From Chiloscyllium plagiosum (taxonomy: Eukaryota), in assembly GCF_004010195.1 (NCBI RefSeq), contig NC_057735.1, forward strand, positions 17,766,865-17,830,864: a stretch of DNA of 64,000 nucleotides. The letters run 5' to 3'. Of this stretch, positions 2,908 through 53,955 are shown one piece after another (position 1 is the stretch's first letter; each line of letters starts with the position of its first letter). The position numbers and the translations under genes were made by a program. The notes beneath the pieces are model-generated. The model worked only from the letters and a program-made list of their open reading frames with translations, did no database searches and was not told the origin of the DNA.

Positions 2908-2971
2908 ATGACAGTCATTTTGAAATGTGGGATATTATTATTGATTCTCTTTGACTGTCAGGCAAGTGACT
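2908..2971 (+). CDS. Gla gene A exon 1, signal peptide MTVILKCGILLLILFDCQASD
   Basis: Hydrophobic core; phase-1 GTAAGT donor at 2972; closely similar to 41861-41924; in-frame upstream ATGs at 2875/2878. Confidence 0.8.
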
Positions 2972-5012
2972 GTAAGTATCACCTTTTTTCATGAAAATTC
3001 TCTGACCAATCTGTTTCTCATGTTTTTACACACTATTCCAGAATGCCTTTATTACCCCAAATGTGCTAATGAGTCAATGCCTGGCTGAGAATTGCTCGTG
3101 ATCTCATTAATTTGCTGCCACTTTGACACCTGAACTAACTACGCATTACTGGGGCAATTAACAAACCTTTGGTCTTCATTCTGAACTGTGAACTGTCTGT
3201 GCCTCCTTCTCTGTGCATCATCTCCTGAGACATAGTTGTGATCAAGGAATGGGATAATTTTTTTTAAAATTACGTTTTCGTACATTAATGCTTTACAAAG
3301 TATATAACTATTCCTAACTTTATGCTAGAATATTCATATTCATTTCTAGTTAGGTAATTAGGCAATTAGAAAATGCATTTTGGAATGTTCAGTAGATATT
3401 TTAAACCTATGATCCAGGCAAAAACCAGCAGTCAAAATGCTCTAGGTTACGAACGACCTAAAGCTGCCCGGATTTAGCCTCAGAAATCTGAATGGATGAC
3501 CCGGCAGCCCACTTAGAGCAGCAGTGAATTTCATTCAATCAATATCAAACCCTATTCATCCATGGAGATTATAGGTGAATGTAGTCATCCACTTCTCAAT
3601 GTGGGTTTTCCACAGACCTGAGAGGAAAATGTTGTTGTGGCTTTTCTGATAGATGAAGTCAACGGAGAAGAGGATCATTGATCAGATGAGATCATCTTTA
3701 TTTTCCTTTATTTTCTATATTTCCTTTATGAGGCTGGAAGGTGAGCAAGCATTCCTCTGGACTCAAGGGAAGTTGAGGCCTGTCCTATCCCATGTTCCCT
3801 TCTTCTTCTGAAGAAGGCTCACTGGGCCTGAAATGTTATCCCTGATTTCTTTGCACAGATTCTGCCACACCTGTTGTGTTTTTACTGGAATTTCTGTTTT
3901 TGCTCACTACTCCTCCCAGAAATCACCCTTTCCAAACCTACATAATGTCAACTGCCAAACATAGGCTACCTGCTATTGTTCTGAGGGAACAGGTATGAGA
4001 TGTATGTGGCAACATATAATTGAGTTAAAATTACATGGGCCTCTTTTCATTTACAGCAGATTTTTAATTTGGCTGACCACCCAGCGACTAGAAACCAACC
4101 CAAAGTTAGAAGTTGGGCCTGAATATGTATGTTGTAGGTATCAGGCTGACATCAACGTGACTACAACCCATACAGAAAGCCATCTAAATTAAAAGGCCAT
4201 AATGCATGTCATTATGCATGAGATAAAAGATCACAGAACGTGCATCTGAAATTTTGTTACAAGGCTTGTGTTAAAAAAATACAGATTACGTTGTGGTTTG
4301 TGTTTACACGCACAAACATATCAATCTCCCCCATGCCCGTAAATGGATATAAGTTCTGTTTACTGGAAGATCTGTTACAGGATTAGTGAGCAGACAGATT
4401 TATTACAGAAGTTCACCAACTATTGTTAGAGCAAATCACCACTATGCTCATTCATACAATGTGCTGCAAGTTATATTGACATTGGCTGCTGGTCACATGT
4501 TCTATATCCTGACTACTTGTTCATTAGCATGTTCCCTTTTAAAGTGATATCATAACAGATTATGTTGGGTGTGAGTCTATTTGACAGGATTGTGTCTTTC
4601 TTAAATTTTGAAAATGTCTCCATGGCTAAGCAAACATGAATAACTAAATTACTACTGGTATACTTATTTTGTTAATTTTCCTTTATGAGCCAGAGTATTT
4701 TAGCATCAAAAGAATTTGAAAGGAACTTCAACAAAATCATTCCTCAATAGTTTGATAGATTCCAATGACAGTGTTATATCCTGGGAGATTTTAAACCAAG
4801 GTGTTAGCAAATCCAGTGAAACTCCAGCTTAGAATCTTGACTTTTGACATACTTCATACAAAAGAATTTGCATCTATAAGCATCCTTCAGAATTTCTGGA
4901 TATTGCAAAATGGTCCAATCTAACAGGATTAAAATTGGATAATATACCAATACAATGTTTTATATACATCGGCACCAGATTTATTATTACATGACTATTC
5001 AATATTATTGAG

Positions 5013-5149
5013 TGTTTTTACAGAAATCAGCTGCTGCACGGTTTTTGCCTCGATTTGAGTTTTTGAAAGGGAATCTGGAAAGGGAGTGCTGTGAAGAAAC
5101 CTGTTCCAAAGAAGAGGTCCGGGAGGTTTATGAAAATGACCAACCAACT
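5013..5149 (+). CDS. Gla gene A exon 2, propeptide+Gla (L)[45 protein letters not shown]
   Basis: GNLEREC-x-EE-x-C-xx-EE-x-RE Gla signature; carboxylase-recognition propeptide; phase-0 GTAAGG donor; acceptor is GAG. Confidence 0.88.
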
Positions 5150-5289
5150 GTAAGGACTCCACTTTAACCTTCATTTTTGCCTCTTGTCCCATGTTCATTT
5201 TCTCATTTTCATTCTTTCTCTGATCACATATCTGTAAAGATATAAGGTATTCAGGATAAAGGCTGGCTGCAAGATGAAATTTGACTAAT

Positions 5290-5440
5290 GCACCTAACCT
5301 ACACATCCCTGAACACTATAAGCAATTTAGCATGGCCAATCCACCTAACCTGCACATCTTTGGATTGCGGGAGGAAACCAAAGCACTGGGAGGAAACCCA
5401 TGCGAACACAGGGAGAATGTGCAAACTCCACACAGTTGCC
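5290..5440 (-). mobile_element. HE1-like SINE fragment
   Basis: Reverse complement of the SINE body at 6900-7030. Confidence 0.7.
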
Positions 5441-5930
5441 CACACAATGTGATTGTTTAAGTAGTTATTGTTGGATTGTGCACTCTATGGAGGGGTGATT
5501 CTGTCATTCAGTTGCAAAGTGAGAAGCTACGCTCACTGTGTGTCTTTCTCACTATATCAACAATGCACTGCCCTTGACATTCCATTGGTTTAAATCTAAT
5601 GGAAAGAAGATGGCTGCAGTGTCCCTATAAGTTCTACTGTGTTCCTGTTCGCACCAGACTGAAGAATCACTACTGTTGGAATATCCTCCTGTGACACAAA
5701 CACTTGTGTCTTTCCATTGTCTCAACTTCCTTTTTCTATCATCTCTTCTTAAGACGTTTTCCGTCCTTTGACTTGACTTCAATGTTGTGTATCCCATGTG
5801 ATATTCTTTGTGCGGTTAAATAATTATATAAATAGACATTGTTAACATGTTTTTTGGTGCAAATTATTTGTTTTATTTGTGATGTACATTTCTAATTCCT
5901 CTGGATTTAAAATCTCTCTTTTCTTTGCAG

Positions 5931-5961
5931 GAAATATTCTGGTACCTTTACATTCTCAAGA
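5931..5961 (+). CDS. Gla gene A exon 3, aromatic stack EIFWYLYILK
   Basis: ttttctttgcag acceptor; FWxxY motif; phase-1 GTATGT donor; 31 nt. Confidence 0.8.
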
Positions 5962-6229
5962 GTATGTATGATAGTCTTTGATTTGTTAATTTAACAGAAA
6001 AAACATGGATGTGGATATGCTAGAGAAACTGTGTGTCTCCCTCCCATTCAATGGATCTTGATATCCTATAGATATTTTTAATCAACCTCTTTAGATATGT
6101 TATGACACATTTTAGGACACTTTGGGACTTGAACCTAACCTTTTAGTCCACAGGTAGCGACTCCTTGCTTAGCTGTATGGACAGGAAAATTCTATTTTTA
6201 GGAACAATAGAGACAGCAACATAGATTCA

Positions 6230-6592
6230 TAGATTATAGAGTCATAGAGATGTATAGCATGGATACAGACCCTTCGGTCCAACATGACCATGCCAACCAG
6301 ATAACCTAACCTAATCTAGTCCCATTTGCCAGCACTTGGCTCATATCCCTCTAAACCCTTTTCAATTCATATATCCATCCAGATGTCTTTTAATTCTGTA
6401 ATTGTACCAGCCTCCACCACTTCCTCTGGCAGCTCATTTCATGCACACACCACCCTCTGGGTGAAAATATTGCCTCTTAGGTCCCTTTTATATCTTTCCC
6501 CTCTCACCCTAAACCAATGCCCTCTAGTCCTGGGCTCCCCCACCCCAGGGAAAAGACCTTGTCTATTTATCCTATCCATGCTCCTCATGATT
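6230..6592 (-). mobile_element. CR1 LINE 3' end
   Basis: RTRGHWFRVRGERYKRDLRGNIFTQRVV is a typical CR1 ORF2 C-terminus. Confidence 0.85.
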
Positions 6593-6821
6593 TTCTTTGC
6601 AGTCAAGAAATTTCCAGTGACTGTTCCCCCACAAGAAGAAAAGTCCAAAACTATTGACTTTTATAAAGCCTGCATTCTAACATTAACACACTGCAGGTGG
6701 CCTAAACAAAATGACAGTCAAGATTCCATCCCTCAGGGGGAGAAAGCCCATCCTCAAGAGTTGCAGGCCAATCTGATTGACCGCCAGCTCTGTCAGATCA
6801 AGTAGTGCCAGAACTACTTGT

Positions 6822-7135
6822 GGGCGGCATGGTGGCACAGTAGTTAGCACTGCTGCCTCACAGCGCCAGAGACCCGGGTTCAATTCCCGCCTCAGGCGAC
6901 TGACTGTGTGGAGTTTGCACGTTCTCCCCGTGTCTGTGTGGGTTTCCTCCGGGTGCTCCGGTTTCCTCCCACCATCCAAAGATGTGCAGGGTCAGGTGAA
7001 TTGGCCATACTAAATTGCCTGTAGTGTTAGGTAAGGGGTAAATGTAGGGGTAGGGGTGGGTTTCGCTTCGGCGGGTCGGTGTGGACTTGTTGGGCCGAAG
7101 GGCCTGTTTCCACACTGTAATCTAATCTAATCTAA
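6822..7135 (+). mobile_element. Full-length tRNA-derived HE1-like SINE
   Basis: A box tggcacagtag, B box ggttcaattcc, central 'gtggagtttgcacgttctccccgtgtct' domain, CR1-derived tail and (taatc)n. Confidence 0.85.
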
Positions 7136-7171
7136 TGTAAACTCAGTAATGGATGCTATTGGGACTGAAGA

Positions 7172-8105
7172 CATAGAACATAGAACATAGAACAGTATAG
7201 CACAGTACATGCCCTTCAGCCCTCAATATTGTGCCAGCCTTTTATCCTACTCTAAGATCAAACTAACCTACATACCCTTCATTGCACTATCTTCCATGTG
7301 CCTATCCAAGAGTCACTTAAATGTCCCTAATGTATCTGACTCTACTGCTGCTGGCAATGCATTCCACGCACCACCACTCTCTATATAAAGAACCTAGCTC
7401 TGACATCTCCCTTAAACCTTCCTCCAATTACCTTAAAGTTATGCCCCATCATGATAGACATTTCCTCCATGGGAAAAAGTCTCTGGCTATCCACTCTATC
7501 TATGCCTCATGACATCTTGTATACCTCTATCAAGTCACCTCTTATCCTTCTCCACTTTGGTGAGAAAAGCTATGCCCTCCAGGCCAGGCAGCATCCTGCT
7601 TAATCTCCTCTGCACTTTCTCGAAGTCCTCCATATCTTTCCTATAATGAGGTGACCAGAACTGAACACAATATTCCAAGTGTGGTCTAACCAGCGCTCTA
7701 TAGCGCTGCCGCATAACCTTGCGGCTCTTAAACTCAATCCCCCTGCTAATGAAAACCAACACACCATACACCCTATCAAGTTGGGTGGCAACTTTGAGGG
7801 ATCTATGGACATGGACCCCAAGATCCTCTGTTCCTTCACATTGCTAGGAATCCAGCCTTTAACTCTGTCTTCTACATTAAAATTTGACCTTCCAAAGTGA
7901 ATCACTTCACACTTTTCCAGATTAAACTCCATCCTCCACTATCAGTCCAGTTCTGCATACTGTCAATGTCCCATTGCAACTCCCAGCAGCCCTCCACACT
8001 ATCCACAACTCCACCAACCTTTGTGCCTTCAGCAAACCTACTAACCTACCCTTCCACTTCCTCATCCAAATCATTTATGAAAATCACAAAGAGCAAGGGT
8101 CCTGG
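7172..8105 (-). mobile_element. CR1 LINE RT 3' fragment
   Basis: MEFNLEKCEVIHFG and LVRPHLEYCVQFWSP motifs; (catagaa)n tail. Confidence 0.88.
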
Positions 8106-8699
8106 GGGAGACAATTTCAGGAAGATCATTGACATTGTTCAGAAGGACTTTTAGGATAAGATGAATAGTCCACCCTAGAAGGGTGTTGGGAGTGGGCATG
8201 TTTTGGATGTAAGTCAAGGAGGTAAAATCGTGGGTCTATGATCTTTCAGAGGGCTGTTCCAATTGCACCCAAGGATTCCAAATGATATATCCCTTTTCTT
8301 TCATTGTTAAAAAAGTCACAAAAATAGAAGTTTCTAGAAAATTTCAGCGGGTCTGGCAGCATCTGTGAAGAAAGATGAAAGGTAATTTTTCAGGTCCGAT
8401 GACTCTTCCTCAGAACTGGTCTCGAAACATTAACCCTGATTTCTCTTCACAGATGCTGCCAGACCTCCTGAGCTTTGCCAGCAACTTCTGTTTTGTTCCT
8501 GGTTTCAGCATCCACGGTTCTCCTATGCCTATCAATTCCCCAGAGTATTATGGAAGTGAAAGCTGATTAAGGTCTTTATGCTGACAACCATTGGCCACTT
8601 AAGACCTGCATTAGGCTGAAGGTTGAAAGTGTAGTTGGTAAAACACCCACCCTGCATTTGAGGGAACAGGTTGGGAGTTGAGGGACAGGAAAGCAAATA

Positions 8700-9790
8700 C
8701 TCAACATATTTTACATGCCCCTCCCTATATGCAAGTGCACCACCCTCTCCTTTTCCTTCAGGAGCTGAAGGACACTATGTGCTGCCCACTTCCTGATGGA
8801 CCTGTAGGCAAAGGTGTTTTTCTTTGTAAATTTCTCAACAAAGGACAGGTGATACAGGACGGTCCAACTCTTGAAGCATTCTGCGGCAACAAGGCCAGTC
8901 ACATCCTTTGCAACTCCGGGGTCAGGTAGAACCTCAGTATGTAGTGACACTTGGCGTTTTTGTACTGAGCGTCTATGCACAGCTTGATGCAGCCACACAC
9001 AAAGGTGGCCATCAGGATGAGGGTGGTGTTGTGTACATTCAATCCCCCCTTATTCAGAGCTTTGTACATGTTGCCTCTGTAGACACAGTGCATCTTAGAT
9101 TAGCAGATGATTGGGTCAGATTTGCAATACATACAACATTTGAGAAAATGCCTCATACCTGATGACCAGTTTTTTACCCAGAATAGAGAGGGTGTGGTGC
9201 TCCCAAAAGTACAATTTCTACCTCACCTTGGCAATGCGCTCCTCCCAAAACTTTGCACATACCAAGGCCACTCTGAACCATATTCCCAACCATACCTTTC
9301 AGGTAGTCTTTCCTGTTGGTGAAGGGGATAAAGAATCAATCAGCCCAGTTCCCAAAGAACATGACTTCGCTCTTGCCTCGATGTATCTTTGCTCCAGAAG
9401 CCAGTTCAAACTGGTCACAGATGTTTATGAGTCTGCGCACTGACAGCGGATCTGAGCAGAAAACAGTGACAAGAGAGGCTTTCACCTGAAGGTGTCCGCT
9501 GTCTGGAATAGTCGCCCCTCTCAGATTCATTGAGACTACACTAATCATTTTGGTGTACAACAGTTGGATCCAAATGCGGATTCCCTCCCCGAAGCTCATT
9601 TTGGACAGTGGATCCCACATGTAGGTGTGTGAAATCTTGTCAAAGGCCTCCTCCCAGTCCTGGCTGATGAGGCAGCAATCCAACACCGCCCCCTCACATC
9701 CCCTCCCCTCCGCCCCCGCCCTACATGTATGCGATCGTATCCCTGAGAAGCGCGTGACTGTCAGAGATCATTCTTCCTGGTACAATCTTT
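8700..9790 (-). mobile_element. L1/Tx1-clade LINE RT fragment
   Basis: EAFDKISHTYMW and FELASGAKIHRGKSEVMF motifs; frameshifted. Confidence 0.75.
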
Positions 9791-10158
9791 GAATCATCAT
9801 TACAGTGAGAACAATGTTAAATTGCAGTATGAGCTTTTGGAGTAATGGCTTTGCATATCATAGTTTAGAAAAGTGGTCTTTTGACTCATATGATCTTTAA
9901 AACATTTGAAATAACAAGAAACATAGAGACAGCTTCTAATACACAATGGCAATGAGATACAATCCCTAGGCTGCATTGTTGTTATTTTGGATATGAGTTT
10001 GTAAAATTTTAATTTCAGTATCTGCATACTTGGTTTATTTCTACATCTGCTTATGTTATATCACAACTAAATTTTCACATGATTGCAAACTTGTGCTAAT
10101 GACAAGTTTATACTAATTTGTCTTTGGTCTGAGTAACATGAAGTTCTGATTATTTCAG

Positions 10159-10314
10159 AGAATTCAAATCTAAAACACATTCTGGATAATGCAGCGGAAA
10201 TTCTTGAAGAGCAAATGAAAATTAATGAACTTAGAAAGGAGCTCACTGGAAAGAAACAAGAAATCAATGATTTAAAAGAACAACTCTTAGGAAAGTTAGA
10301 AAGTTGTATCGATG
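10159..10314 (+). CDS. Gla gene A exon 4, coiled coil (K)NSNLKHILDNAAEILEEQMKINELRKELTGKKQEINDLKEQLLGKLESCID
   Basis: ttatttcag acceptor; symmetric phase 1-1, 156 nt, open frame; I/L heptads; homologous to 32728-32912. Confidence 0.78.
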
Positions 10315-10488
10315 GTAAATAATAGGAAAGACATTTTACTTTACTTGTTATATTCTGCTAAGGCTGAATCAAACTATGAAGTTTATGTTAAATTTGTAAT
10401 GTTAAACTTCTTGATCAATAATGCTAATGTATGAATGATAAATGACATAAACTGAATGTAGTTTGGGCCTGTTTCATTTGTCTTTTAG

Positions 10489-22347: not shown

Positions 22348-22361
22348 GGTTAATTATTAAC
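22348..22361 (+). promoter_or_regulatory. Consensus HNF1 site in gene B promoter
   Basis: GGTTAATTATTAAC, exact consensus match, ~110 bp upstream of the ATG. Confidence 0.65.
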
Positions 22362-22469: not shown

Positions 22470-22542
22470 ATGAACATGAATATTATTTTGAAGTATGAGA
22501 CAATCTTTTTGTTTCTCTTTTGGTCCTCTCAAGTGAACTGCA
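22470..22542 (+). CDS. Gla gene B exon 1, signal peptide MNMNIILKYETIFLFLFWSSQVNC
   Basis: Aligns with gene A/C signal peptides (ILK...LF..Q); phase-1 GTAAGT donor at 22543. Confidence 0.75.
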
Positions 22543-25140: not shown

Positions 25141-25233
25141 TCTGCAATTAAATTATTGCTAGAAACAGCAAAAGAAAGACTTTTTTCATGTGTGTTATGT
25201 GGATAAAGGTACTCTTAACCCACTATGATTTAG

Positions 25234-25394
25234 TGTTTTTGCAGAAATCACTTGCCAACACCTTCCTTTCCCGGATCCGGAGGGCTAATGACGGCCTGGA
25301 GGAACTACTACTTGATAATATGGAAAGAGAATGCTGTGAAGAAAAGTGTTTGCCAGAAGAGACTCAAGAGGTTTTGAGAAATTCTCCAAAACCT
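25234..25394 (+). CDS. Gla gene B exon 2, propeptide+Gla (M)FLQKSLANTFLSRIRR/ANDGLEELLLDNMERECCEEKCLPEETQEVLRNSPKP
   Basis: TAG acceptor; RIRR/AN furin site; Glu at 6,7,14,16,19,20,25,26,29; phase-0 GTAAGG donor. Confidence 0.9.
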
Positions 25395-27556: not shown

Positions 27557-27581
27557 GAACAAACTTGGATTACGCCCAATG
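27557..27581 (+). CDS. Gla gene B exon 3, degenerate aromatic stack EQTWITPN
   Basis: ttgtttttgcag acceptor; 25 nt as in F7/F9/F10 exon; Trp retained; GTATGT donor. Confidence 0.75.
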
Positions 27582-28947: not shown

Positions 28948-28983
28948 GCAGCGTTAGACCTCTCCCCTGTTTTCTGAGCCAAT
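28948..28983 (+). CDS. Gla gene B probable exon 4, linker (G)SVRPLPCFLSQ
   Basis: cttttttgtacag acceptor; GTAAGT donor; 36 nt, phase 1-1. Confidence 0.55.
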
Positions 28984-29039
28984 GTAAGTTTGTAATACAA
29001 TTCACAAATCACATAAATCTATGATTGAAAAACACGATT

Positions 29040-32727: not shown

Positions 32728-32912
32728 CACGCTGTGCAAAGGACAATCTGAAAGAGGTCTATTCCATAGGAAAGAAAATCTTTGAAAAACAAAAGGAAGT
32801 TGTCTATCTTCATCAGCAACTGATCCATCGCAAGTCGTACATTTTGTACCGGATGAGCAATCTATTTCAAAGCATAGAACGTTTGGTTTGGTTGATATCA
32901 GATCAGCTTTAA
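32728..32912 (+). CDS. Gla gene B terminal exon, coiled coil (S)RCAKDNLKEVYSIGKKIFEKQKEVVYLHQQLIHRKSYILYRMSNLFQSIERLVWLISDQL*
   Basis: ttctttcttgttcatag acceptor, phase 1; heptads align without gaps to gene A exon 4; AATAAA at 33007-33012. Confidence 0.72.
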
Positions 32913-39389: not shown

Positions 39390-40060
39390 CATAGAGAAAT
39401 AAACAGCACGGAAACAGGTCCTTTGGTCCAACTTGTCCATGCCAACCAGATATTCTAAAAAATCTAGTCACGTTTGCCATCTTTTGGCCATATCCCTCTA
39501 AACCCTTCCTATTCGTATACCCATCCCCAGATGCCTTTTAACTGTTGTAAGTGCACCAGCCTCCACCACATCCTCTGCAGCTCATTCCATACAAACATGA
39601 CCCTCTGTGCGAAAAAGTTGTCCCTTAGGTCCCTTTTAAATCGTTCCCCTCTCACCTTAAACTTATGTCCTCTAGTTTGGACTCCCCCACTCTGGTGAAA
39701 AAGACCTTGTCTATTTACCCTATCCATGTCCTTCATGATTTTATAAACCTCTATAAGATAATCCCTCAGCCTCCGATGCTCCAGGGAAAATAGTGCCAGT
39801 CTGTTCAGCCTCTTCCTATAGCTCAAACCCTCCAACCCTGGTAACATCCTTGTAAATGTTTTCTCAACCCTTTCACGTTTCACAATATTTCCTATAGCAG
39901 GAAGACCTGAATTGCATGCAATATTCCTATAATGGCCTAACCAATGTCCGGGGTGCAAAATGACATCCAAATTCCTATACTCAATGCATTGACCAATGAA
40001 GGCAAGCTTACCAAATGCCTCCTTCACTATTCTATCCAGCTGCAACTTCACCTTCAATCT
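39390..40060 (-). mobile_element. CR1 LINE 3' fragment
   Basis: ORF 39509-40057, RGHKFKVRGERFKRDLR. Confidence 0.85.
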
Positions 40061-41711: not shown

Positions 41712-41725
41712 GGTTACTTATTAAG
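41712..41725 (+). promoter_or_regulatory. HNF1-like site in gene C promoter
   Basis: GGTTACTTATTAAG in a block shared with 2740-2775. Confidence 0.5.
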
Positions 41726-41860: not shown

Positions 41861-41924
41861 ATGACAGTAATTTTGAGCTACGGGATAATATCATTGCTTC
41901 TCTTTGGCTGTCAAGCAAATGACT
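41861..41924 (+). CDS. Gla gene C exon 1, signal peptide MTVILSYGIISLLLFGCQAND
   Basis: aaaATGa start; hydrophobic core; phase-1 GTAAGT donor. Confidence 0.82.
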
Positions 41925-42828
41925 GTAAGTATCAATGTTTACCACAGTATCAATGTTTCTCAGGATAATTCTTCACAGAGTCTGATTTTAGACATAGACC
42001 CCTTGTTCCCTCCGTTGCTCCCATATACAGTGCTGAGTTAGTCCCTGTCTGACAATATGTTGATGATCTGATTTGTTCTCTACCACTTTGACTTTTGTAT
42101 CCACTGCCCACTGACTGTCGGTGATTGCCACACTCAATTTAATATGTTCAGTTATAGCCGCCTAGTCTGTGACTTTTTATTTCATATTTTGTTGTATGTT
42201 AAGGGTTTTTCCACAGGGTGTGGATTTTTCACTTTAACGTATTAATCTTTTTTACAAACTAAGTGCTTATTTTCTACAGATGGACTGGAATAAACAACCC
42301 TCAGGTCTTCATTCTCAATCATGAATTATCTGTTTCTCCTCTTCGTACCATCCCTTCAGACACAGTTGAGATCAAGGAATGTGATCATAATACTGTTTCT
42401 TAAAAAATAAATTTTTGTGTAAGTGCATTTACGTTTTGTGTAAAAACATTAATGAATACAAAATATTCATACACCTTTTGCTGGTTTTATGTGGCATGAT
42501 AGTACTGATATTTTGAGTGGTTTCCATTAAGGTAATTGGATTATGACATTTAGATTGGAAAAATGGCAGTTTTAATGCTATCCACTGGGTGTAAACTGGA
42601 GTGATATGTAGTTAAAATATCCCTGATTATTTATCCATACTAGAGCTAGTCACAATTTTGACTCAAGCTTCAGAAAGGGTGCTAAGCAGCCCAGACAAAT
42701 GCACAGGGTCCTCACTGACATGTTCAGACTACAGGTGAAATAAGTCATCCACCTCTGACTGTTAATTTTCTCCCTGGCCTGAGTAAGTGAGATACTGTGG
42801 CTCTTTCGCCAGGTAAATATTCAAGTGA

Positions 42829-42954
42829 AAAATGTGTTGCATAAGCCCGAAACGTCGATTCTCCTGCTCCTTGGATGCTGCCTGACCTGTTGCGCTTTTC
42901 CAGCAACACATTTTTCAGCTCTGATCTCCAGCATCTGCAGTCCTCACTTTCTCC
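42829..42954 (+). mobile_element. Penelope pLTR-derived short insertion
   Basis: 14-bp TSD aaatattcaagtga at 42815-42828 and 42955-42968. Confidence 0.8.
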
Positions 42955-43918
42955 AAATATTCAAGTGAGAAGAGGATCATGGATCAGATGAGCCCACTTT
43001 TATTTTCTTTATGAGGTTGGGAGGACTGCAAAGGTTCCTCTGGGCTCAAGGCAGGTTGAATTCTCTCTTGCTCCGGGCTCCCTCCTTCTTCTGTCCTTTG
43101 AGATCCTCCTAGAATTTCTCTTGATATATGTCCTTGACTGCCAGCAGTCAACCATGGATCACTTCCTGAACAAAAGCAGAAAATTCTGCTGTGAAGAAAA
43201 GTCATATTAAAAAGTTAACTCTGACAGATCTGCTGAGTGTCTCCAAAATTTTCTGGTTTTGTTTCAAATTTCCAGCACCTGCTTTTATATGGGCCACTAC
43301 TTTCTGCAGAAATAGGTGTGAAGTGGATCTGATAGCCTATTCATGAGTTAAAATTGCTGGGGCCTTTTTTTTCTCTAATAGCGACTTACAGTCTACCTGC
43401 TAGCAACTGCCCCCTAATTAAAACCAGAGCTTGGACGTATGAATGATTCCAGTCCATCTGCTAAGAGCAAATACTTGGTTTATTAAAGAGAAAAAAATTT
43501 TAAAGTGAAACTTCCACACCACACAGAAAAAAATTAACACACAATAAAATATGAAATAAAAGGTCACAGACCAAGCTGCTACAGTGAAACAGATTATACT
43601 GAATGTGGCAATGTTTGACAAGATTGTGGAGAAAATGCTTACTTGTGTTTTTTTTTAATTTGAAACTATCTCTGCAGCTGAGCAAGGCTAAATAATTATC
43701 AATTTACTTACTATAGGATTTAACCACATCAGGCCACAGTACTTTAGCTCAAATAATTTTTGAATGATTTTGCAAAATTCATCCCTTAATATTTTGACAA
43801 ACTTCTGTGGCTGGTCTATTTCCTGGGAAATTTAAAACCAGCAACTCCAGTAAAATTCCAGCTTAGAGTCTTGACTCTTATACTTCAAAGAAATGAAAAA
43901 ACTTGCATCTATTGAGTA

Positions 43919-44130
43919 AGGAAATGTGTTGCTGGAAAAGCGCAGCAGGTCAGGCAGCATCCAGGGAACAGGAGAATCGACGTTTCGGGCATAAGCCCTT
44001 CTTCAGGAAGAAGGGCTTATGCCCGAAACATCGATTCTCCTGTTCCCTGGATGCTGCCTGACCTGCTGCGCTTTTCCAGCAACACATTTCCAGCTCTGAT
44101 CTCCAGCATCTGCAGACCTCACTTTCTCCT
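43919..44130. mobile_element. Palindromic Penelope pLTR insertion
   Basis: 85-bp inverted arms 43920-44004 and 44007-44091; 13-bp TSD catctattgagta. Confidence 0.85.
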
Positions 44131-44271
44131 CATCTATTGAGTATGTTTTGCAACTTCAAACTATTACAACAGACACTTCACACAACAATATTATCATGGT
44201 ACAATAAAATATCACATAAAATCTACACAGGCACCTGATTTATTATTGCATTATTATTCAAAAATATGGAG

Positions 44272-44435
44272 TATTTTTACAGAAATCAGCTGCTGCACAG
44301 TTCCTGTTTCGATTTCGTAGAGCTAACAATTGGAGATTTGAGGAGCTTAAGTCTGGGAATTTGGAAAGAGAGTGTATAGAAGAAACCTGTTCCAAAGAAG
44401 AGGTCCGAGAGATTTTTGAAGATGATCAAAAAACT
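44272..44435 (+). CDS. Gla gene C exon 2, propeptide+Gla (L)[54 protein letters not shown]
   Basis: Canonical Gla domain with Glu at 7,8,15,17,20,21,26,27,30,33; RFRR furin site; GTAAGG donor; acceptor is GAG. Confidence 0.92.
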
Positions 44436-45501
44436 GTAAGGACCAAGTTTATTCTTGTCTAACTCTCACCGCTCCTTTCTCATTTTCACATAAATAATTA
44501 CATAACTGAGAAGGTCTCAGATGTCCAGCAGAGTGAGCTGGCTGCAATATGGAACTTGCTGTTTCCATTGCTTATTGTGAGTAGCTCTAGAAACTCACTG
44601 AACTATTTGTCACCACACTGCCATATGGGAATAGGTAAAGATGGCATTGACTGATAAAGAATCCTAATTTTTTTCTGTGGTGTGGGTATGCTTTGGGTTG
44701 ATTTCCTTCTCTCAGTGCTAAGTAATTACTTAGCTCAACAAGACCTCCACATCAAGTCTGAAACTATGGTCGTTCTGTGCCCTGTTGCTGCATCCTCCGA
44801 TTTATTTCTGCAGAAAACAGTTTTTATTGCACATTTTCAAATAATTTATTCTAATCTACTGAAGCCATTTCCTAAGGCAAACCACCATGAATGGTGTTGG
44901 GATCCTGCCCTACATAGAATAATAATTGATGAAAGGCACACAGGCAGAAAAGTGCTGTCTGTTTGCATTTCTGTTTGGAAAATGAAGGTCTAAATGCCCT
45001 TACCTTTTGATTTAAAATATTAAACAAGAAACATAATCATTTTCAACAAAGCAGTTAGATTTAAAATGCCAACTTCATTAAGAATTGTGAAGTGAATGTA
45101 ATTGTTGACTAATTGTTTGAGGAGAGCAGATTGTATTCTAATCTGATCAATGTCTGCTAAACTATGTACAAGAGGGCACTTAGTATGAAAACCGTAGTTG
45201 TAGCATGTAAAGATATTGCACTTTATCTCAAGTTAAAAGTAATCTTAAACAGTGCTAAAAACCACACAACACCAAGTTATAGTCCAGCAGGTTTATTCAG
45301 AAGCACTAGCTTTCAGAGTGCTGTTCCTTCATTAGGTGGTTGTGACAGATAATGCTGCTCCTTCATTGGGTGATGTTCTAAGCGCCAACCATGTAACAAT
45401 TAAATTGGAGTTGGCCTGAGACTGTGTTTAATTAGGAACAATTGATTTTTGGCCTTAAAAGTACAAAATTAATAATCTTTTCTTTATTTCCTTTCTTCAA
45501 G

Positions 45502-45526
45502 GAAATTTTCTGGGACTTCTATACAG
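45502..45526 (+). CDS. Gla gene C exon 3, aromatic stack EIFWDFYT
   Basis: 25-nt exon, FWxxY, phase 0-1, long pyrimidine tract. Confidence 0.88.
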
Positions 45527-46183
45527 GTATGCTTTCTCTAATACATCACAATTTAAAGTATTGTGCTTATTTAGACCAATCAGGTTCTGACATCATAAAA
45601 GCTATTTTCCTGACCATGTGATTAGTTTAATAAAGTAGTTCGAAGGTAGTTTCATTTCAGAAAGAAAAAAATAAAGACCTCATGATGCCTCAAAGCACTT
45701 TGCAATTGGTGGCACAGTTTTGAGAAGTATTTTACTCAGATCAGCCTCCCGAAAAATACTCCCTAAAAAAGTGATGAATGAACAGTGATGAATGGTTTTG
45801 GTAACTTTAACTAAGGATCCAATATTTACCAGTACTCCAAGGGTAATTATGCTGCCCTTTATAATAGTGTCACAGGATCTTTTGTGTTCACTTTAAACAG
45901 CATCTAGGATCTCAGTTTAATGTTGCAACCAAAAGCCATTACCCTTTACAGGTTGCATGCCCTCAGAACTGCATCAGATTGTCAGCCTAGCATTTGCGTT
46001 CAGGTATCAAGCGTGAGTGACACCAAGAATTCTCTTTTCTGTATTCTAAAGGCCCAATTGGTATTATGTGGCCTAACAAATCGAATAATATTAATGAGTG
46101 AGAGTCAATGTCCTGAAACAAACAAAAAACACAGAATGTGTTGGAGATATTCAGCAAGCCTGGCTGCACCTGTTGGGGAGAGA

Positions 46184-46214
<31 letters not shown>

Positions 46215-46824
46215 CGAGAGAGAAACAGAGTTAATGGGCTGATTTTTTTACCAAAAATTGTTTAAGACCATAAGATGATAAGACACAAGAGCAGAAATAG
46301 ACCATTCAGGCCATCGAGTCTCTCCGCCATTTGATCATGGCTGATATGTTTCTCAAACCCATTCTCCTGCCTTCTCCTCATAACCTTTGATCCCCTAACT
46401 AATCAAAAACTTATATACCGCTGTCTTAAATACTCTCAATGGCTTGGAATCCATGACCTTCTGCAGTAATGAGTTTCAGAGATTAATCACCCTCTGGATG
46501 AAGTGTAAATTTTGTGACTTCAGGTCATTCTGCTATAATGCACGTTTCGTTAATGCGAATTCGCTATAATATGATTGACGAATTGGAGACACTGTTTCCA
46601 AAGTGCAAACTTTTAAAGCGTGTACTGGCTATAATGCGTTTCTGGCCCCATTAGTTTAAATGGTGCTGCTATTATGCAAATTTTTAATAACACGGGATTG
46701 CATCAGACCAGAACTGCCGCATTATAGCAGAACCGACTGAATCAGGAAGGATTTCTATTTGCAAGCTCCAGGAGATTATCTCACACAATTGTCTGCAATG
46801 GCTTCCTCACTCGTGTGGAAGTCA

Positions 46825-48055
46825 ACTAGGAGAAAGGTGAGGACTGCACATGCTGGAGATCACAGTCGAGCATGTGGTGCTGGAAAAGCACAGCAGGTCA
46901 GCCAGCACCGAGGAGTAGGAGAATTATCGTTTCAGGTATAAACCCTTCATCAGGAATGAGGCTAGTGGGTCAGGGGGCTGAGAGATAAATGGGAGGGAGG
47001 TGGTGGGGCTGGGGGAAAGGTAGCTGAGAATGCAATAGGTAGATGAAGATGACAGGTCAGAAAGGAGGGTGGAGATGTGGTCTCTACATTGGGGAGACAG
47101 GATGCCAACTTGTGGATCATTTCAGAGAACATATCTGGGAAACCTGCACCAACCAATCTCACAGTCACGTGGCTGAACATTTCAATTCCTCCTCTCACTC
47201 CACCAAGGACATGCAGGTCCTGGGCCTCTTCCATCTCCAAACGCTACCCACACGATGCCTGGAGGAAGAACGCCTCATTTTCTACCTTGAGACCCTGCAA
47301 CCACGTGGGATTAATGAGGATTTCACCAGTTTCCTCATTTCCCCTCCGCCCCCACCTTATCAGAGTCCAAAGCCTCCAACTCAGCATCACCCTCATTCCC
47401 ATCAAATCATCTTCCGCCACTTCCACCACCTACAAACAGACCCCACCACAAGAGATATATTTCCCTCCTCAGCCCTACTAGCGTTTTGGAGAGATCATTC
47501 CCTCCGCGACTCCCCTGTCAGGCTAACGTCTCCACCAGCCCTCAACTCATTCCGTGCACCTTACCCTGCTACCACAGGAAGTGCAAACACTGCACCCACA
47601 CCTGCCCTTCACCTCCGTCCCAGGCACTAAAGGATCCTTCCACATTCAACATAAATTTACCTGTACCTCCACCAATGTCATCTATTGCATCCTTTGGTCT
47701 CCTCTCCATTGGGGAGACAGGATGACAATGTGGGTCATTTCAGAGAACATCTCTGGGACACCCATACCAACCAACCCCATAGCCCTATGGCTGAACACTT
47801 CAACTCCCCCTCCCACTCTAACAAGGACATGCAGGTCCTGGGCTTCCTACATCGCCAAACCTAACCATGCCTGGAGGAAGAATGCCTCATCTTTCGCCCT
47901 GGGACCCTGCAACCACTCGGGATCAATGTGGATTTCACCAGTTTCCGCATTTCCCCTCCCCTTCATCCAGGCATTGGGTGGTAAGGGAGTGGCGATGGAG
48001 GAGGCCCAGGACCTGCATGTCATGAGGGAGTGGCGATGGAGGAGGCCCAGGCTTT
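46825..48055. mobile_element. Rearranged Penelope-like remnants
   Basis: Two GLYIGETG..HFREH-like GIY-YIG segments; inverted pLTR at the left end. Confidence 0.75.
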
Positions 48056-48504
48056 TTTAATGACAACTTCAGGGGTATTTTTGTTCTATTTGGGTAACAT
48101 TCAGAAAGTGTAAAAAATGCATAAGCGTTTGTCAGCACATTGAACCACATTTTAAATGCTCCTTTCATGGTTAACAAGCCTAGACATGATAATTGAACAT
48201 AGAGGCAGAGACTCTTCCTCTCGACTATATGATCTCCTAGAAGACAGACAAGAAACGATTAAGAAATAGCAGATGATGAATTACATTTTCCAACATTAAT
48301 GGTCAAATGCAGAACAGATTCAAACCAATTCCCTTACCTATTACTTTAGACTTATATCTGCTGGTATTGGCATTCAAATTTTCTACTCTACATGCAGAAA
48401 AATCTAAATAAACTGTTAGAGCAATTTCTGCTAATTCTAGAAATGCCGTGCCTTATATGATGCCAGATCAAAATAAAAACTCCAATTTAATTTCTCTTTT
48501 TCAG

Positions 48505-48618
48505 GCAGAACAATATGCGATTCATCTCCCTGTCAAAATAATGGGCGGTGTGTAGATTTGTACGGCGAATTTTATTGCAAATGTCTTGGAGGATTTAATG
48601 GAACATTCTGCGAACAAG
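48505..48618 (+). CDS. Gla gene C exon 4, EGF1 (G)RTICDSSPCQNNGRCVDLYGEFYCKCLGGFNGTFCEQ
   Basis: Six-Cys EGF; 114 nt, phase 1-1, like F7/F9/F10 EGF1; strong acceptor. Confidence 0.92.
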
Positions 48619-48943
48619 GTCTGAGAATTTTTGTCACAAAATTCATTCTTTCTCTTGAGATTCCCATAGATTCTCCAATCCCAATGGTGTCACTAGTTGT
48701 GTACTGTGAGGGCAAGGTGTTCTTACATTATCTATCATAATCTATTCACATAAATTGAGTGCAATAATAATTGGTGCAGACCTTTCTTTAGTACTTTTTC
48801 TAGGTCTTATACTGAATCAGGTGATAATAACAACTGTGGTATGGGTAATGATCACTAGGAACAGGTTTTCCTGTAGCAACCCAAACCAGGACCAAAGATA
48901 GAAGATCACAGCAAGATTGATTAAATGACTGATAGAATATGAT

Positions 48944-49163
48944 GAGGTAAAAACAATGACTGCAGATGCTGGAAACCAGATTCTGGATTAGTGGTGCTGG
49001 AAGAGCACAGCAGTTCAGGCAGCATCCGAAGAGCAGTAAAATCGACGTTTTGGACAAAAGCCCTTAAATTCCTGATGAAGGGCTTTTGCCCGAAACGTCT
49101 ATTTTACTGCTCCTCAGATGCTGCCTGAACTGCTGTGCTCTTCCAGCACCACTAATCCAGAAT
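48944..49163. mobile_element. Palindromic Penelope pLTR insertion
   Basis: Inverted arms; near-TSD gatagaa(t/c)atgat. Confidence 0.75.
49068..49103 (+). ncRNA. Minimal hammerhead ribozyme core
   Basis: CTGATGA-a-GGGC tttt GCCC-GAAAC-GTC. Confidence 0.65.
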
Positions 49164-52100
49164 GATAGAACATGATTCTCAATTTGCTGTAATGCCACAC
49201 CATTGACCACAGCCCCACAACCTACAACTCCCATTGCAGATCTTCCTGTTTGTGGCACAAGCTCCACTGCCCAGCTTTGTGAGCATCCCTCCATTGGAAT
49301 ACACTAAGACCTGATGAAGAGAAACATAAGAGCAGAAAGGCTTGAAAAATTCTGTCTCCCAAAAATTACGAAGCCCTGGCTGGGCTTGCAATGAAACCAA
49401 GTGCTTGTCAAGTGAAATAGAGAAAGTTCCCTGAAATCCTGCAATAGTATTGTGATAGCAGAGACTTGATAAAAGTGTTCTCAAAACTTGCTAACAATTG
49501 TTCTTTCTTACTTGTTCATGGGATGTGGATGTTACTAGCTAGGCCAGCATTTAGTGCCCAGACCTAATTGCCCTAGAAAAGGTGGTGGAGACCCACCATT
49601 TATTCATTCATTCACTGGATGAGGATGTCACTTGATTGGTCAACATTTATTGCCCATCCCAGACAGCAGTTAAGAGTCAACCACATAGCTGTGGGTCTGG
49701 AGTCATATGCAGTCCAGGCCAGGTAAGAATGGCAGTTTCCTTCCCTAAAGGACATTTCTGAACCAGATGTGTTTTTCTCAACAATACAATAGTTTCATAT
49801 TTTTATTGATAACAAATTCCACCATATGTCAATGGCAGGATTTGAACTCGGATCCCAGAACATTACCTGGATTTTTGGATTAACAATCCAGCAATAATGC
49901 CACTAGGCTATTGCCTCCCCAATTTTATCATCCAATGCAGGGTAGGGACACCCACAATGCTGTTAGGAAGGGACTTCCATGATTTTGATCCAATTACAGT
50001 GAAGGAATTGTGATATATTTCAGAATGGCGTGTTTCTTGGATGGAAACCTGTAGGTGGTGGAGTCCCCATAATCTGCTGCCACTTTCAGGTGGTAGAGGT
50101 CATGGGTTTGTAATGTGCTATTGAAGGAGCATTGGTGAGTTCCCGTAATGCATTGCTTCCACTGCTTAGCAGTGGGTATGGATGACATGCCAATAAAGCA
50201 TGTCATTTTGTCTTGGCTTGTGTCAAGCTGCTTGAGTGTTCTTGGAGCTTCACACATTTGGCTTCACCCCATTTCCTCTTACTGTTCCTGGCAACTGAGT
50301 ACACACCAAACACAACAGAGAAAAATCTGGTCTGGTGACTTATATATATTTAATACAATTTATAACACAAAAGGGCATGACAATATCATAATGTAATTTT
50401 ACATTTATTTCAGTCATGTATTTCTTCCCAAATTGAGAATAACCACTAGATAGTTAAAAGTCAAAGCTTTGTGGCTTATTAACTACCGTGGCAGTTGGGA
50501 CAGATAACTGATTAAGTGTGCACAGCTAAGATGGATAGATAGTCTATGTAGAGCTATACGCAATGACTCAACCTTGCTAGATCAATTAAAAAACATATTT
50601 GTTATTTAACAGGCATGTCATTCATGATGCTAGATCCTATTAGCTATTCGCAGAATAGCTATTGACAGAATATTAGGATCTGGCATCTCGTAGAGGATTT
50701 GGGCTGCTTCCTTCCTAAAAAGACAATATTAAAGATGTTGTATACAGCATTCAAAACAGATAAAACTGATTGTGCCACTAGAAATGAACAAGCACAATCT
50801 GATAGCAATTACAGGGACATTGTTTCAGGGTGGCATAGATTGAGATCTAAATATTGAAGGGTAAAAGACACTTAGAAAAATGGAGAGGTTTCTTTGTTAA
50901 TTAATGTCATTATTAAAATTATAGACAGGGATGACCTAAATTTAGGAAACCAGGAAGTAGGGTCGAGTTGAGAAATGATAAAGGAAAGAGGATACTTGTG
51001 AAACAACACATAAGCTCCCAAACAGTAATTACACAGAGTATAAATACAAAAAAAAAAGTTTGTCAGAAAACTGCGGTCAGTCATTGGGAATTTTAATCTG
51101 CATACACATTGGAAAACCAGATGTACAAAGATAACATACAAGAGGGTTTCATAGAATATTTTGGGGCTTATTTATTAGAACAGCACATTTGAAGCTGACC
51201 AGTAAGCAGGCTATACCAGACTTGTTAGAGGGAGAGAGAAGTGAATCTAAGACTATTATTTTAAACTTGAGTAAGAGCAATTCTGGTTGAAAGAAGAGTG
51301 AGCTAAAGTGTACTTGCAAATCAGGTTAATGGTTAGATCAAAAGAGATGCAGTGGCAGACATTTAAAGGGATATTTTGTTTTATACATTGTGTAACAAAC
51401 AAGGCATTCACTTTTAATAACTGGGCAGCCTCTGGTGCATATTTGCTCCACAACACTGACAAGGACATTTAGTGTCTGGTGCCTTCCCAGTCAATGTGTT
51501 GGTTTACTGAAAGGATTTTGCTGATCTAAGGTTCATCTTCCCCTCTTAACATTCATCTGTTCTGCTTCCTGACATCTCTGAAGTAAAATCTTCTTTGGAG
51601 TGTAATAAATCTGATAAAGAATCATCAGGAAATCTGACAACAATTCTGTCCTTTATGAATTCTGATTTTAAATCACCAGTACATTTCTACATGTAATTAA
51701 TGATAATTAATTAAGTAATCTATGTATCTCCCTGAATGCTAAGCTATCTGATAAAATCTTGCTTTTCCAATTATTTTATTTGTTTTAAGAATAAGACAAT
51801 TGTCAAAGGCTTTTGGTACTTCTTCAAAAGAACTTGTTACTTGTTTACCACTTAGTGAATTATAACATCATTGATTATACTCCTAAATGAATATTAAAAT
51901 GTACAAACATATTCAGTTTCAGATTTAGTATCTAATTTTGAAACTGTTCTATGTTTTAAGAATTGTTTTCTCCAAAATGTCCAATTCTGTGTTCTATTTG
52001 TCCATCTCTGAAATGAATCTTTCTGGCAATTTTATTTCTGATGCCATGTATTTGTAATATGATTATTTTGTTTCCTTGCTTAAAAGGTTTTTTTTGCAGT

Positions 52101-53824
52101 GATGGTAGTGCTGCTGCTGTGTTCTGCTTTGCTACAGGTTTCCCAGCTTTTGCAGGCATATCGAAGGATTCTACTTTTCCTACATTTTCACTGGATGTTT
52201 TTTGTCTTTAATAAATGATACATATTTTCTTAACAGCTTTACTGAATTAACTCTGCTGCCTCTGGCTTTAATCCTGTATTAAACATGGTTTCATTAAGTT
52301 ACTCCCTCAAGTCATGGCTTTAATAGATGAATCCTACTTCTATTTTTATTCTGTGTTTCCTGCTTCCCATTGATTAAAACACATTTTTCTTGCCTTTAAT
52401 GTGATTTTATTGAAGGATCCCCTGTCTTTTGTTTCAACAAAATCGGCTCCCTTCCTTTATCTGTTAGACCATGGCTGCTGAGGCTTCCCATCTGCCCTTT
52501 CATCACTTTAATTCTGGCTTTGCAGTGTCCCTGGATCTCAGTTTAGGTTACTCTGAGCCCTTAATTTCTCTTGTTGTAACAGACCTCCACCACTGTCAGC
52601 GTATTGCATTAGACAGCTAAATGAAATCAGCACTGCTGCTTACCATGTTGTATATGCAGTCAAACTGAGTCTGCACCTCAGCATTGGGGAGGTTTGCTGT
52701 CACAACCCCCTTTTAAGTTTCAGGATTGGCTTACTCAAGTGTGGTTGAGGAAAACCATTTATTGGACTAACTAGATGACCTCTTGAAAAAGTAGTTTATT
52801 GCATGCTTGCAACTAGTTACTGGTTACCTTTATATGTTAGGCATTGTTACAGCAATGATAAGGAGGGCCTAGATCTCAATCCAGGCCCTAAGCTGTTTTC
52901 CCTAAAATTAAAAATGAGATCATCATATTGGGTGGTGCTTAAGGCACTCTTGGTATTATCCTTGTCAGATTCTTACATTGTTAAATAACACAAACTAGAA
53001 GGCAAAAGTTTCCAACATTGTTGTCTTCTTGGGTGATATAAACACTGACCTAGCTGAATAAATCTGACATCTAAGTTAACTGAAAATGGTGGTTCAAGCA
53101 ATTAACAATAAAATTAATAGTTACCAGCAAATTTTGTAGTTGGATACCATTCTGTTGTCTGCATTTTCTGGAGTGCAAACAGAATTGAAGAACATATAAA
53201 GACATTGTGGTCTGTACTCCAACATGGAGAACTTTCAAGATGTGCACTCTGTAAAGAGGCAGGCAAGTGTGATAAAGTCCACAAGCCTGGTTGATGACCC
53301 TTGTGTGACTCAACTCTTAAAAGGGCACTGTCTTCACATAAAATACACCAACAATAATACATAACAGATACCAATATAATACCGTTTTAGGAAATACTTT
53401 TGTGCTTATTAAATGAGGAGCACTAATGAACATTATCCATTCAGGACCTTAGTTTAGAACAGTCTAGCTAGCTACAGAATGATGTTTCCTCTATTGCACT
53501 GTAAAGCTATGTCACTGCCTCAATATAAGGGCAGCTTGTCATTTTGTCTATCTCTCACAGACTGTGGCCTTCCATATTGAAGTAGATTTTGGGTCATCTT
53601 TTAGAGGTGGCTTAGATAGAATGGCCTAAATGGCCTCCTACTCTACAGTTCTATGAAACCTACATAAAGACAGCCAGCAGAGAACCTTCTGAACATCTGG
53701 GTTTGAAATCAGATCTCAACAGGAAAAGACATTTGTCTACACCTCTATACTTTGCACTTATGCTCAAAAGACTGAAATATTATTATAAAAGCAGTAAATA
53801 ACGTGGTTTATAATTATTTTCCAG

Positions 53825-53955
53825 ATATCAATGAGTGTGAGCTCATGAACCCTTGCCCACCAGGATCAACGTGCGTAGATGGAGTCAATAACTTTACTTG
53901 TAATTGTCCACCTGAAGGGTGCAATTTATTCAGAAACGACACTGGATTTTACTAA
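53825..53955 (+). CDS. Gla gene C terminal exon, Ca-binding EGF (D)[42 protein letters not shown]
   Basis: ttttccag acceptor, phase 1; DINEC cbEGF signature; TAA at 53953-53955; AATAAA at 54145-54150. Confidence 0.88.

What the first reader, a model, noticed from the sequence alone, without database searches (positions are those of the whole stretch)
2908..53955. Tandem cluster of three secreted, protease-less vitamin K-dependent (Gla) protein genes
Seen: three same-strand genes, each with a phase-1 signal exon, a propeptide/Gla exon and an aromatic-stack microexon. Spliced lengths of 420, 480 and 498 nt are all in frame, and each ends at a stop followed by AATAAA. Established: this 5' exon layout is that of F7/F9/F10/PROC/PROZ, but those continue into a (pseudo)protease domain; GAS6/PROS1 continue into four EGF plus LamG domains; PRRGs are transmembrane. 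Inference: these ~140-165 aa proteins fit none of these classes and may be an uncharacterised secreted Gla family acting as Ca/phosphatidylserine-binding modulators. The ORF track misses most exons.
Basis: partly seen in the sequence, partly recalled or inferred. Interest (0 to 1): 0.92.

Follow-up and report, generated by a model that had tools for sequence, protein, structure and literature searches.

The report
Shark protease-free vitamin K proteins
Three neighbouring shark genes encode small secreted proteins that carry the membrane-gripping module of clotting factors but no enzyme, two of them on a coiled-coil stalk, a build absent from the known list of such proteins, so sharks and rays may have an undescribed class of blood regulators.

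Summary
The cluster is real, but it holds two architectures, not one. Gene C (41861-53955, 165 aa) is signal-propeptide-Gla-EGF-EGF-stop. Eleven database proteins from 10 shark and ray species end at the same place, auto-named 'factor X-like'. Its second EGF is Notch-type, not clotting-factor type. Genes A (2908-10322, 131 aa) and B (22476-32912, 157 aa) are Gla plus a cysteine-flanked coiled coil; all 8 non-repetitive hits of a coiled-coil profile carry Gla. A lacks the furin site, as does an ortholog at 53% identity, so it probably keeps its propeptide and binds membranes poorly. All three keep the carboxylase docking residues and share an HNF1-like promoter site. No protease, factor-X-type EGF2 or membrane helix was found. 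Best reading: liver-secreted, carboxylated, non-catalytic phosphatidylserine binders (C an adaptor or competitor, B multivalent). Expression, carboxylation, oligomer state and function are unshown. Two database models fuse B to C, so read-through is open. Ten literature searches found no description.

The parts
2754..2766 (+). HNF1-like palindrome upstream of gene A (2 mismatches)
   Evidence: consensus recalled
2908..2971 (+). Gene A exon 1, signal peptide, phase 1 (in-frame ATGs also at 2875 and 2878)
5013..5149 (+). Gene A exon 2: docking residues F-16/A-10/L-6 kept; RR/AN cleavage site and omega-loop start deleted (27 nt shorter than C); Gla core
5931..5961 (+). Gene A exon 3, aromatic stack, 31 nt
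10159..10322 (+). Gene A last exon: coiled coil with C-terminal Cys, TAA stop; AATAAA at 10573
22349..22361 (+). Exact HNF1-like palindrome upstream of gene B
   Evidence: consensus recalled
22476..22542 (+). Gene B exon 1, signal peptide, phase 1
25234..25394 (+). Gene B exon 2: propeptide with RIRR/AN site, Gla domain (9 of 10 canonical Glu)
27557..27581 (+). Gene B exon 3, 25 nt, degenerate aromatic stack
28948..28983 (+). Gene B exon 4, 36 nt, Cys-bearing segment ahead of the coil
   Evidence: aligns with P0004 residues 136-148, weak on its own: E 0.64
32728..32912 (+). Gene B last exon: coiled coil, TAA stop; AATAAA at 33007
41713..41725 (+). HNF1-like palindrome upstream of gene C (2 mismatches)
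   Evidence: consensus recalled
41861..41924 (+). Gene C exon 1, signal peptide, phase 1
44272..44435 (+). Gene C exon 2: propeptide with RFRR/AN site, complete Gla domain (10 of 10 canonical Glu); inner acceptor at 44283
45502..45526 (+). Gene C exon 3, aromatic stack, 25 nt
48505..48618 (+). Gene C exon 4, EGF1
53825..53955 (+). Gene C last exon: Notch-type EGF2 with short C5-C6 loop (CPxxGC), TAA stop; ATTAAA at 53963, AATAAA at 54145

Best explanation
An elasmobranch tandem family of secreted, non-catalytic Gla-domain proteins, built by joining the clotting-factor 5' cassette (signal, propeptide, Gla, aromatic stack) to different phase-1 3' exons. Shown by sequence: gene structures, orthologs, intact carboxylase docking residues, no protease. 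Inferred: (1) liver transcription through the shared HNF1-like site; (2) gamma-carboxylation; (3) furin removes the propeptide of B and C, giving Ca2+-dependent binding to exposed phosphatidylserine; (4) C acts like a free factor X light chain, a monomeric competitor or adaptor on procoagulant membranes, with its conserved EGF2 as the partner-binding surface; (5) B oligomerises through its Cys-flanked coiled coil and binds by avidity, shielding or bridging such surfaces (activated thrombocytes, dying cells); (6) A keeps its propeptide, so it is a Ca2+-binding polyanion on a related stalk rather than a membrane binder.
For: Gene models in frame with canonical sites; A matches database protein P0018 letter for letter. 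C orthologs: 11 of the 12 hits (14 candidates), from 10 species, end 3-18 residues after the last EGF2 Cys; window C is 61-79% identical to the 8 compared. B is 44-73% identical to 4 homologs, A 53% and 65% to 2. F-16/A-10/L-6 are present in all 3 window genes and all 12 family homologs tested; their role: bioRxiv 10.1101/2025.02.18.638829, passages. Heptad period 3.5, reached by 0 of 5000 shuffles; helix 91-139 predicted with block pLDDT 74-93 over residues 91-140. HNF1-like site at the homologous place in all three promoters, exact in B; 1.6% of 170-nt windows hold one. No protease or factor-X-type EGF2 in six frames (best E 0.87 and 0.61; no catalytic motifs).
Against: No expression, carboxylation, binding or clotting data. 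The C ortholog search was limited to under 195 aa, so it could not return long forms; the longer search missed known orthologs such as P0010 and is weak. B-type domains have lost Glu32 in 5 of 5 and have a variable aromatic stack, so membrane affinity may be low. HNF1-like matches at 2 mismatches are not enriched window-wide (8 seen, 4.3 expected, 9 of 100 shuffles as high), and the A and C sites are duplicates. Two database models fuse B to C. The whole-protein models are low confidence (mean pLDDT 60 and 46).
Confidence: 0.5

Rival explanations
1. The proteins are mineral or calcium regulators in the manner of matrix Gla protein: polyanionic Gla heads bind calcium phosphate in plasma or calcified cartilage. 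Most plausible for A and B.
For: A and ortholog P0022 keep the docking site but have no furin site; PMC8006282 (passages) calls a furin site typical of Bgp but not Mgp. B lacks Glu32 and often the aromatic stack.
Against: C keeps a complete membrane-type Gla domain (10 of 10 Glu; closest solved relative factor X, E 1.8e-13). B keeps RxRR/AN and Glu6/7 in 5 of 5, which mineral binding alone would not need (inference).
Confidence: 0.2
2. B and C also, or mainly, form one read-through transcript: a double-Gla polyprotein (Gla, coil, propeptide, Gla, EGF, EGF) that furin splits into the two products.
For: Heptranchias P0001 (named isoform X2) has two Gla domains in this order; Scyliorhinus torazame P0002 joins the coil to a C-type Gla; both enter at the residue matching the inner acceptor at 44283.
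Against: The two joins leave the coil at different residues. P0016, nearly identical to P0002 in the coil, reads on to its own stop. C has its own promoter site and signal exon, as do most orthologs. None of the 10 GT sites in the window's B last exon looks like a strong donor by eye.
Confidence: 0.12
3. C is a signalling or bridging ligand: Gla anchors it on dying cells and the Notch-type EGF pair engages a receptor, as GAS6 does through LamG domains.
For: EGF2 is the most conserved part (17 of the 25 invariant columns of alignment A6), its best solved matches are Notch EGFs, and it carries an O-fucose-type motif (consensus recalled).
Against: No LamG or other known receptor-binding domain. 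Notch ranks first partly because repeats add up; EGF similarity is generic.
Confidence: 0.13
4. The genes are decaying, truncated duplicates of factor X without function.
For: A and the ray protein P0014 lost the cleavage site; window A lost 9 codons relative to C; A and B carry an unpaired extra Cys in the Gla loop.
Against: Open frames and matching ends across sharks and rays; EGF2 is not the FXa_inhibition type found in shark factor X; the coil has no counterpart in factor X; A's loss of the site is shared with a 53%-identical ortholog.
Confidence: 0.05

Closest known systems
Factor X / VII / IX / protein C / sirtilin (Gla-EGF1-EGF2-protease)
   Same: Exon 1-4 layout as described for F9 (PMC8911121, passages); propeptide and Gla closest to factor X among solved chains; EGF1 matches factor X EGF1 (E 6e-09).
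   Different: No protease or activation peptide; EGF2 is Notch/hEGF type with a 4-residue C5-C6 loop rather than FXa_inhibition type; A and B have a coiled coil instead of EGFs; neighbour is C1orf74.
Protein Z
   Same: Non-catalytic secreted Gla-EGF-EGF protein acting as a cofactor on membranes; nearest Atlas cluster is a 185-aa 'Protein Z' group (score 0.87, a lead only).
   Different: Protein Z has Gla-EGF-FXa_inhibition-trypsin-like domains (PMC9643190, passages); C has neither of the last two.
Protein S / GAS6
   Same: Protease-less secreted Gla proteins that act as cofactors or bridges on phosphatidylserine.
   Different: They have four EGF and two LamG domains; none of the three has LamG, and C has two EGFs.
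PRRG1-4 (TMG)
   Same: Gla domain without protease; TMG2 is the second-best family among solved chains (E 2.6e-11).
   Different: No membrane helix after Gla (19-residue hydropathy at most 0.75 in the window proteins).
Matrix Gla protein
   Same: A resembles it in keeping the carboxylase docking site without a furin site.
   Different: A has a PF00594 clotting-type Gla core and a coiled coil; no sequence relationship was tested.
Collectins, ficolins, thrombospondin/COMP-type oligomers (recalled analogy)
   Same: A recognition head on a Cys-flanked coiled-coil stalk, giving avidity.
   Different: No sequence match: the coil profile hit no natural solved chain below E 0.03 and no Atlas cluster. 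Works-like analogy only.

Membership tests
Clotting-type Gla-domain (PF00594) proteins | Gla domain above the curated cut-off | tested here: met
   50.3, 34.6 and 60.5 bits against a cut-off of 27
Clotting-type Gla-domain (PF00594) proteins | Signal peptide and carboxylase docking residues F-16, A-10, L-6 | tested here: met
   All three genes; signal peptide judged by hydropathy and homology only
Clotting-type Gla-domain (PF00594) proteins | Furin site RxxR before Ala-Asn (genes B and C) | tested here: met
   RIRR and RFRR
Clotting-type Gla-domain (PF00594) proteins | Furin site RxxR before Ala-Asn (gene A) | tested here: not met
   Absent in A and in P0022; P0019 is truncated and uninformative
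Clotting-type Gla-domain (PF00594) proteins | Actual gamma-carboxylation and Ca2+-dependent membrane binding | not testable with these tools
   Needs protein chemistry
F7/F9/F10/PROC/sirtilin/PROZ | C-terminal trypsin-like (pseudo)protease domain | tested here: not met
   Shark factor X protease against six frames: best E 0.87; no catalytic motifs; orthologs stop after EGF2
F7/F9/F10/PROC/sirtilin/PROZ | EGF2 of FXa_inhibition type (PF14670) | tested here: not met
   Present in P0003, absent from C exon 5 and from P0001, P0005, P0010, P0011
F7/F9/F10/PROC/sirtilin/PROZ | Gla phylogeny nested in one clotting-factor clade | tested here: inconclusive
   Only one outgroup (shark factor X) was available; root unresolved
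PROS1/GAS6 | Four EGF plus two LamG domains | tested here: not met
   Two EGF at most, no LamG in the exons and homologs scanned; no LamG profile was run on the introns
PRRG1-4 | Membrane helix after Gla and cytoplasmic PPxY tail | tested here: not met
   Maximum 19-residue hydropathy -0.05, 0.75, 0.31; at most 1.05 in 15 homologs
Coiled-coil oligomer (works-like collectin/thrombospondin) | Heptad periodicity in a long helix | tested here: met
   Period 3.5, 0 of 5000 shuffles; helix 91-139
Coiled-coil oligomer (works-like collectin/thrombospondin) | Measured oligomer state and interchain disulfides | not testable with these tools
   Needs SEC-MALS and non-reducing gels
Ciona and other invertebrate Gla proteins | Same domain architecture | not tested
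   Kulman 2006 seen only as a reference-list entry

The most novel reading that the evidence does not exclude
Sharks and rays have a third arm of Gla biology: a collectin-like, multivalent phosphatidylserine sensor. B forms disulfide-linked coiled-coil oligomers that coat or opsonise exposed phosphatidylserine; A is a deliberately non-cleavable, membrane-blind subunit that co-assembles through a related coil to tune valency or scavenge mineral; and an optional B-C read-through makes a double-Gla polyprotein that furin splits into both effectors.
Probability: 0.2. Interest if true: 0.9.

Novelty: new variant of a known kind. Interest (0 to 1): 0.72.

Why it matters
The vertebrate Gla inventory is treated as closed (19 members in a 2026 review, PMC13462327, passages). 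Gla-coiled coil and Gla-EGF-EGF-stop are not among the architectures seen there or in PMC9643190. A conserved family hidden under 'factor X-like' names would change how haemostasis and phosphatidylserine sensing in cartilaginous fish are read. It would show the Gla cassette being reused by exon shuffling inside jawed vertebrates. It also offers two natural experiments: a multivalent Gla scaffold, and a clotting-type Gla protein that seems to keep its propeptide, a state known in humans as a haemophilia B defect.

Tried and rejected
Five-exon gene A ending at 15204: rejected for the four-exon form (database match, same coil length to the stop as P0004, no nearby AATAAA). A as a pseudogene: rejected because of orthologs P0022 and P0019. 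Missing linker exons in B (P0004 has about 50 more residues there): none found. Further degenerate gene copies in the window: none; exactly three of each 5' exon. Origin of the coil: no donor found by HMMER over 1.84 billion representatives (5 of 13 hits are repetitive proteins without Gla, set aside), PDB sequences, Atlas or fold search (generic coiled coils, best Z 6.3). Three-copy complex prediction of the A coil: no verdict (scores 0.02 and 0.01, alignment not used), neither for nor against. AlphaFold model of a C ortholog: too poor to use (pLDDT 46). Tree: B is one group (99/100), A and C 5' halves unresolved. Literature searches without a description of these genes; the library lacks most subscription papers, and no supplements were read. 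PMC3141003 and PMC7564532 (passages) were not relevant.
Full report
Setting. The window is vertebrate DNA of 40% GC with many interspersed repeats. The closest named relative of gene C is from Stegostoma tigrinum (79% identity), so the source is probably a carpet shark (inference). A six-frame motif scan found three Gla cores, all on the + strand. The only other gene recognised is C1orf74 (DUF4504, E 6e-73; gene name recalled), behind a CpG island at 60001-60500, about 6 kb after gene C.

Gene models. Built from splice sites and checked by translation. A: 2908-2971, 5013-5149, 5931-5961, 10159-10322; 396 nt, 131 aa. B: 22476-22542, 25234-25394, 27557-27581, 28948-28983, 32728-32912; 474 nt, 157 aa. 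C: 41861-41924, 44272-44435, 45502-45526, 48505-48618, 53825-53955; 498 nt, 165 aa. All introns are GT-AG, and the first three have phases 1, 0, 1. Database protein P0018 ends with the 131 aa of gene A letter for letter and starts at the ATG at 2875. That is an independent model, probably of the same genome, not proof of expression. Poly(A) signals are present but weak evidence (18% chance per 260 nt).

Gene C. Exons 4 and 5 are EGF modules. A search with the matching part of P0001, limited to proteins under 195 aa, returned 12 of 14 candidates. Eleven are C-type proteins from 10 shark and ray species, named 'factor X-like', 'factor IX-like', 'protein Z-like', 'venom prothrombin activator-like' or 'delta homolog 2-like'. 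All end 3-18 residues after the last EGF2 cysteine. The length limit means long forms could not appear there. The two searches for longer proteins gave only P0001, P0002 and shark factor X (3 of 12 candidates) and P0001 and P0004 (2 of 478); one search missed known orthologs, so it is weak. The window itself is firmer: shark factor X protease and EGF2 find nothing in six frames, and no catalytic motif occurs. EGF2 is not the FXa_inhibition type that shark factor X has. Its best solved matches are Notch EGFs, its last loop is shortened to CPxxGC, and it holds 17 of the 25 invariant columns among 10 orthologs. C is therefore not just a cut-off factor X. Against full novelty: the Atlas holds clusters of short Gla-EGF proteins (185 aa 'Protein Z', 121 aa 'factor VII'; scores 0.87 and 0.86), which may be fragments or true short forms in other chordates; I could not resolve this.

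Genes A and B. Their last exons are homologous to each other and to the C-terminus of Heterodontus P0004. A profile of five coil sequences against 1.84 billion representatives gave 13 hits. Eight carry a Gla domain: two were in the query, one is gene A itself, five are new (P0016, P0017, P0019, P0022, P0026; organisms not known here). The other five are repetitive proteins without Gla and were set aside. So, in this search, the coil occurs only together with Gla. Hydropathy across 7 sequences has period 3.5 (0 of 5000 shuffles), with Ile/Leu at residues 96, 103, 110, 117, 124, 131 of P0018, and AlphaFold predicts one helix 91-139 with good local confidence. A-type coils end in a conserved Cys (3 of 3); B-type proteins carry one to three Cys beside or in the coil (5 of 5). 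Interchain disulfides are inferred. In a coil-only tree A and B separate (100/99).

Processing. F-16, A-10 and L-6 are kept in all three genes and all 12 family homologs tested; mutating these in factor IX lowers carboxylation (bioRxiv 10.1101/2025.02.18.638829, passages). B and C have RxRR before Ala-Asn. C has 10 of 10 canonical Glu positions, as do 8 of 9 orthologs tested; B has 9 of 10. A lacks the site through a deletion, and P0022 (53% identical) lacks it too, with a shorter deletion. One ray C-type protein, P0014, also lost it. In factor IX an uncleaved propeptide disrupts the Gla structure and membrane binding (PMC8911121, passages). A is thus predicted to be carboxylated but membrane-blind. 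This rests on two full-length sequences, and cleavage by another protease is not excluded.

Regulation and history. An HNF1-like palindrome (consensus recalled) sits 154, 127 and 148 nt upstream of the three ATGs, exact in B, and the three sites align. Only 1.6% of 170-nt windows hold such a site, but matches are not enriched overall and A and C are duplicates. Liver expression is a reasonable inference. A and C share collinear similarity of 68-75% across promoter, exon 1 and intron 1, while A's last exon is of B type. A is therefore a mosaic, or its 5' half was homogenised with C. B and C are linked in other sharks: fused in the Heptranchias and S. torazame models, and the Heterodontus B and C proteins list the same longest contig length. 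All named relatives are elasmobranchs; absence elsewhere is not shown, and synteny outside the window was not checked.

Read-through. P0001 has two Gla domains and P0002 joins the coil to a C-type Gla; both enter at the residue matching the inner acceptor at 44283. The joins leave the coil at different residues, P0016 shows the catshark-like coil running to its own stop, and the window has no convincing donor. Annotation chimeras are more likely, but a minor real transcript is open.

Mechanism and comparison. The best-supported reading (0.5) is a set of liver-secreted, carboxylated, non-catalytic phosphatidylserine binders: C a monomeric competitor or adaptor, B a multivalent shield or bridge, A a non-membrane subunit or calcium binder. 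All functional steps are inferred. They work like protein Z, protein S or GAS6 in having no enzyme, and B like collectins in build, but fail the membership tests of each family. Known architectures were taken from PMC9643190, PMC9669250, PMC13462327 (passages) and PMC6850207 (first of five parts). Ten searches found no paper on these genes. The library lacks most subscription journals, the Ciona Gla paper was not seen, and no supplements were read.

Verdict. Real, conserved genes; a new variant of the Gla-domain kind with two undescribed architectures and one probable retained-propeptide member. Interest 0.72.

Noticed in passing
window 61460-62272 (+): Single-exon ORF matching DUF4504 (C1orf74), with a CpG island at 60001-60500; it bounds the cluster on the 3' side and gives a synteny anchor.
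   Followed up: partly
window 5013-5149 and 25234-25394: A and B both have an extra, unpaired Cys next to the first Cys of the Gla loop (also in P0019, not in most homologs); could allow disulfide linkage.
   Followed up: no
window 4991-5012, 25212-25233, 44250-44271: The exon 2 acceptors have almost no pyrimidine tract, while a better-looking AG lies 11 nt downstream; several database isoforms (P0006, P0008, P0009) enter there and lack F-16.
   Followed up: partly
window 10309-10320 and 15155-15204: A GTAAAT donor just before A's stop and an in-frame 50-nt exon candidate downstream could give an alternative C-terminus (145 aa).
   Followed up: partly
P0004, P0001, P0016, P0026 versus window 27582-28947: Other B-type proteins have a 40-60 residue Ser/Thr-rich linker between Gla and coil; the window's B and P0017 lack it.
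   Followed up: partly
P0013, P0014: Ray C-type proteins with altered or lost cleavage sites, suggesting repeated loss of propeptide processing in this family.
   Followed up: no
window 29101-30356, 35745-36350, 37001-38784, 39509-40105, 17744-18187, 47043-48060: Decayed retroelement-like reading frames (reverse transcriptase and related; identity recalled, not tested) make up most long ORFs of the window.
   Followed up: no
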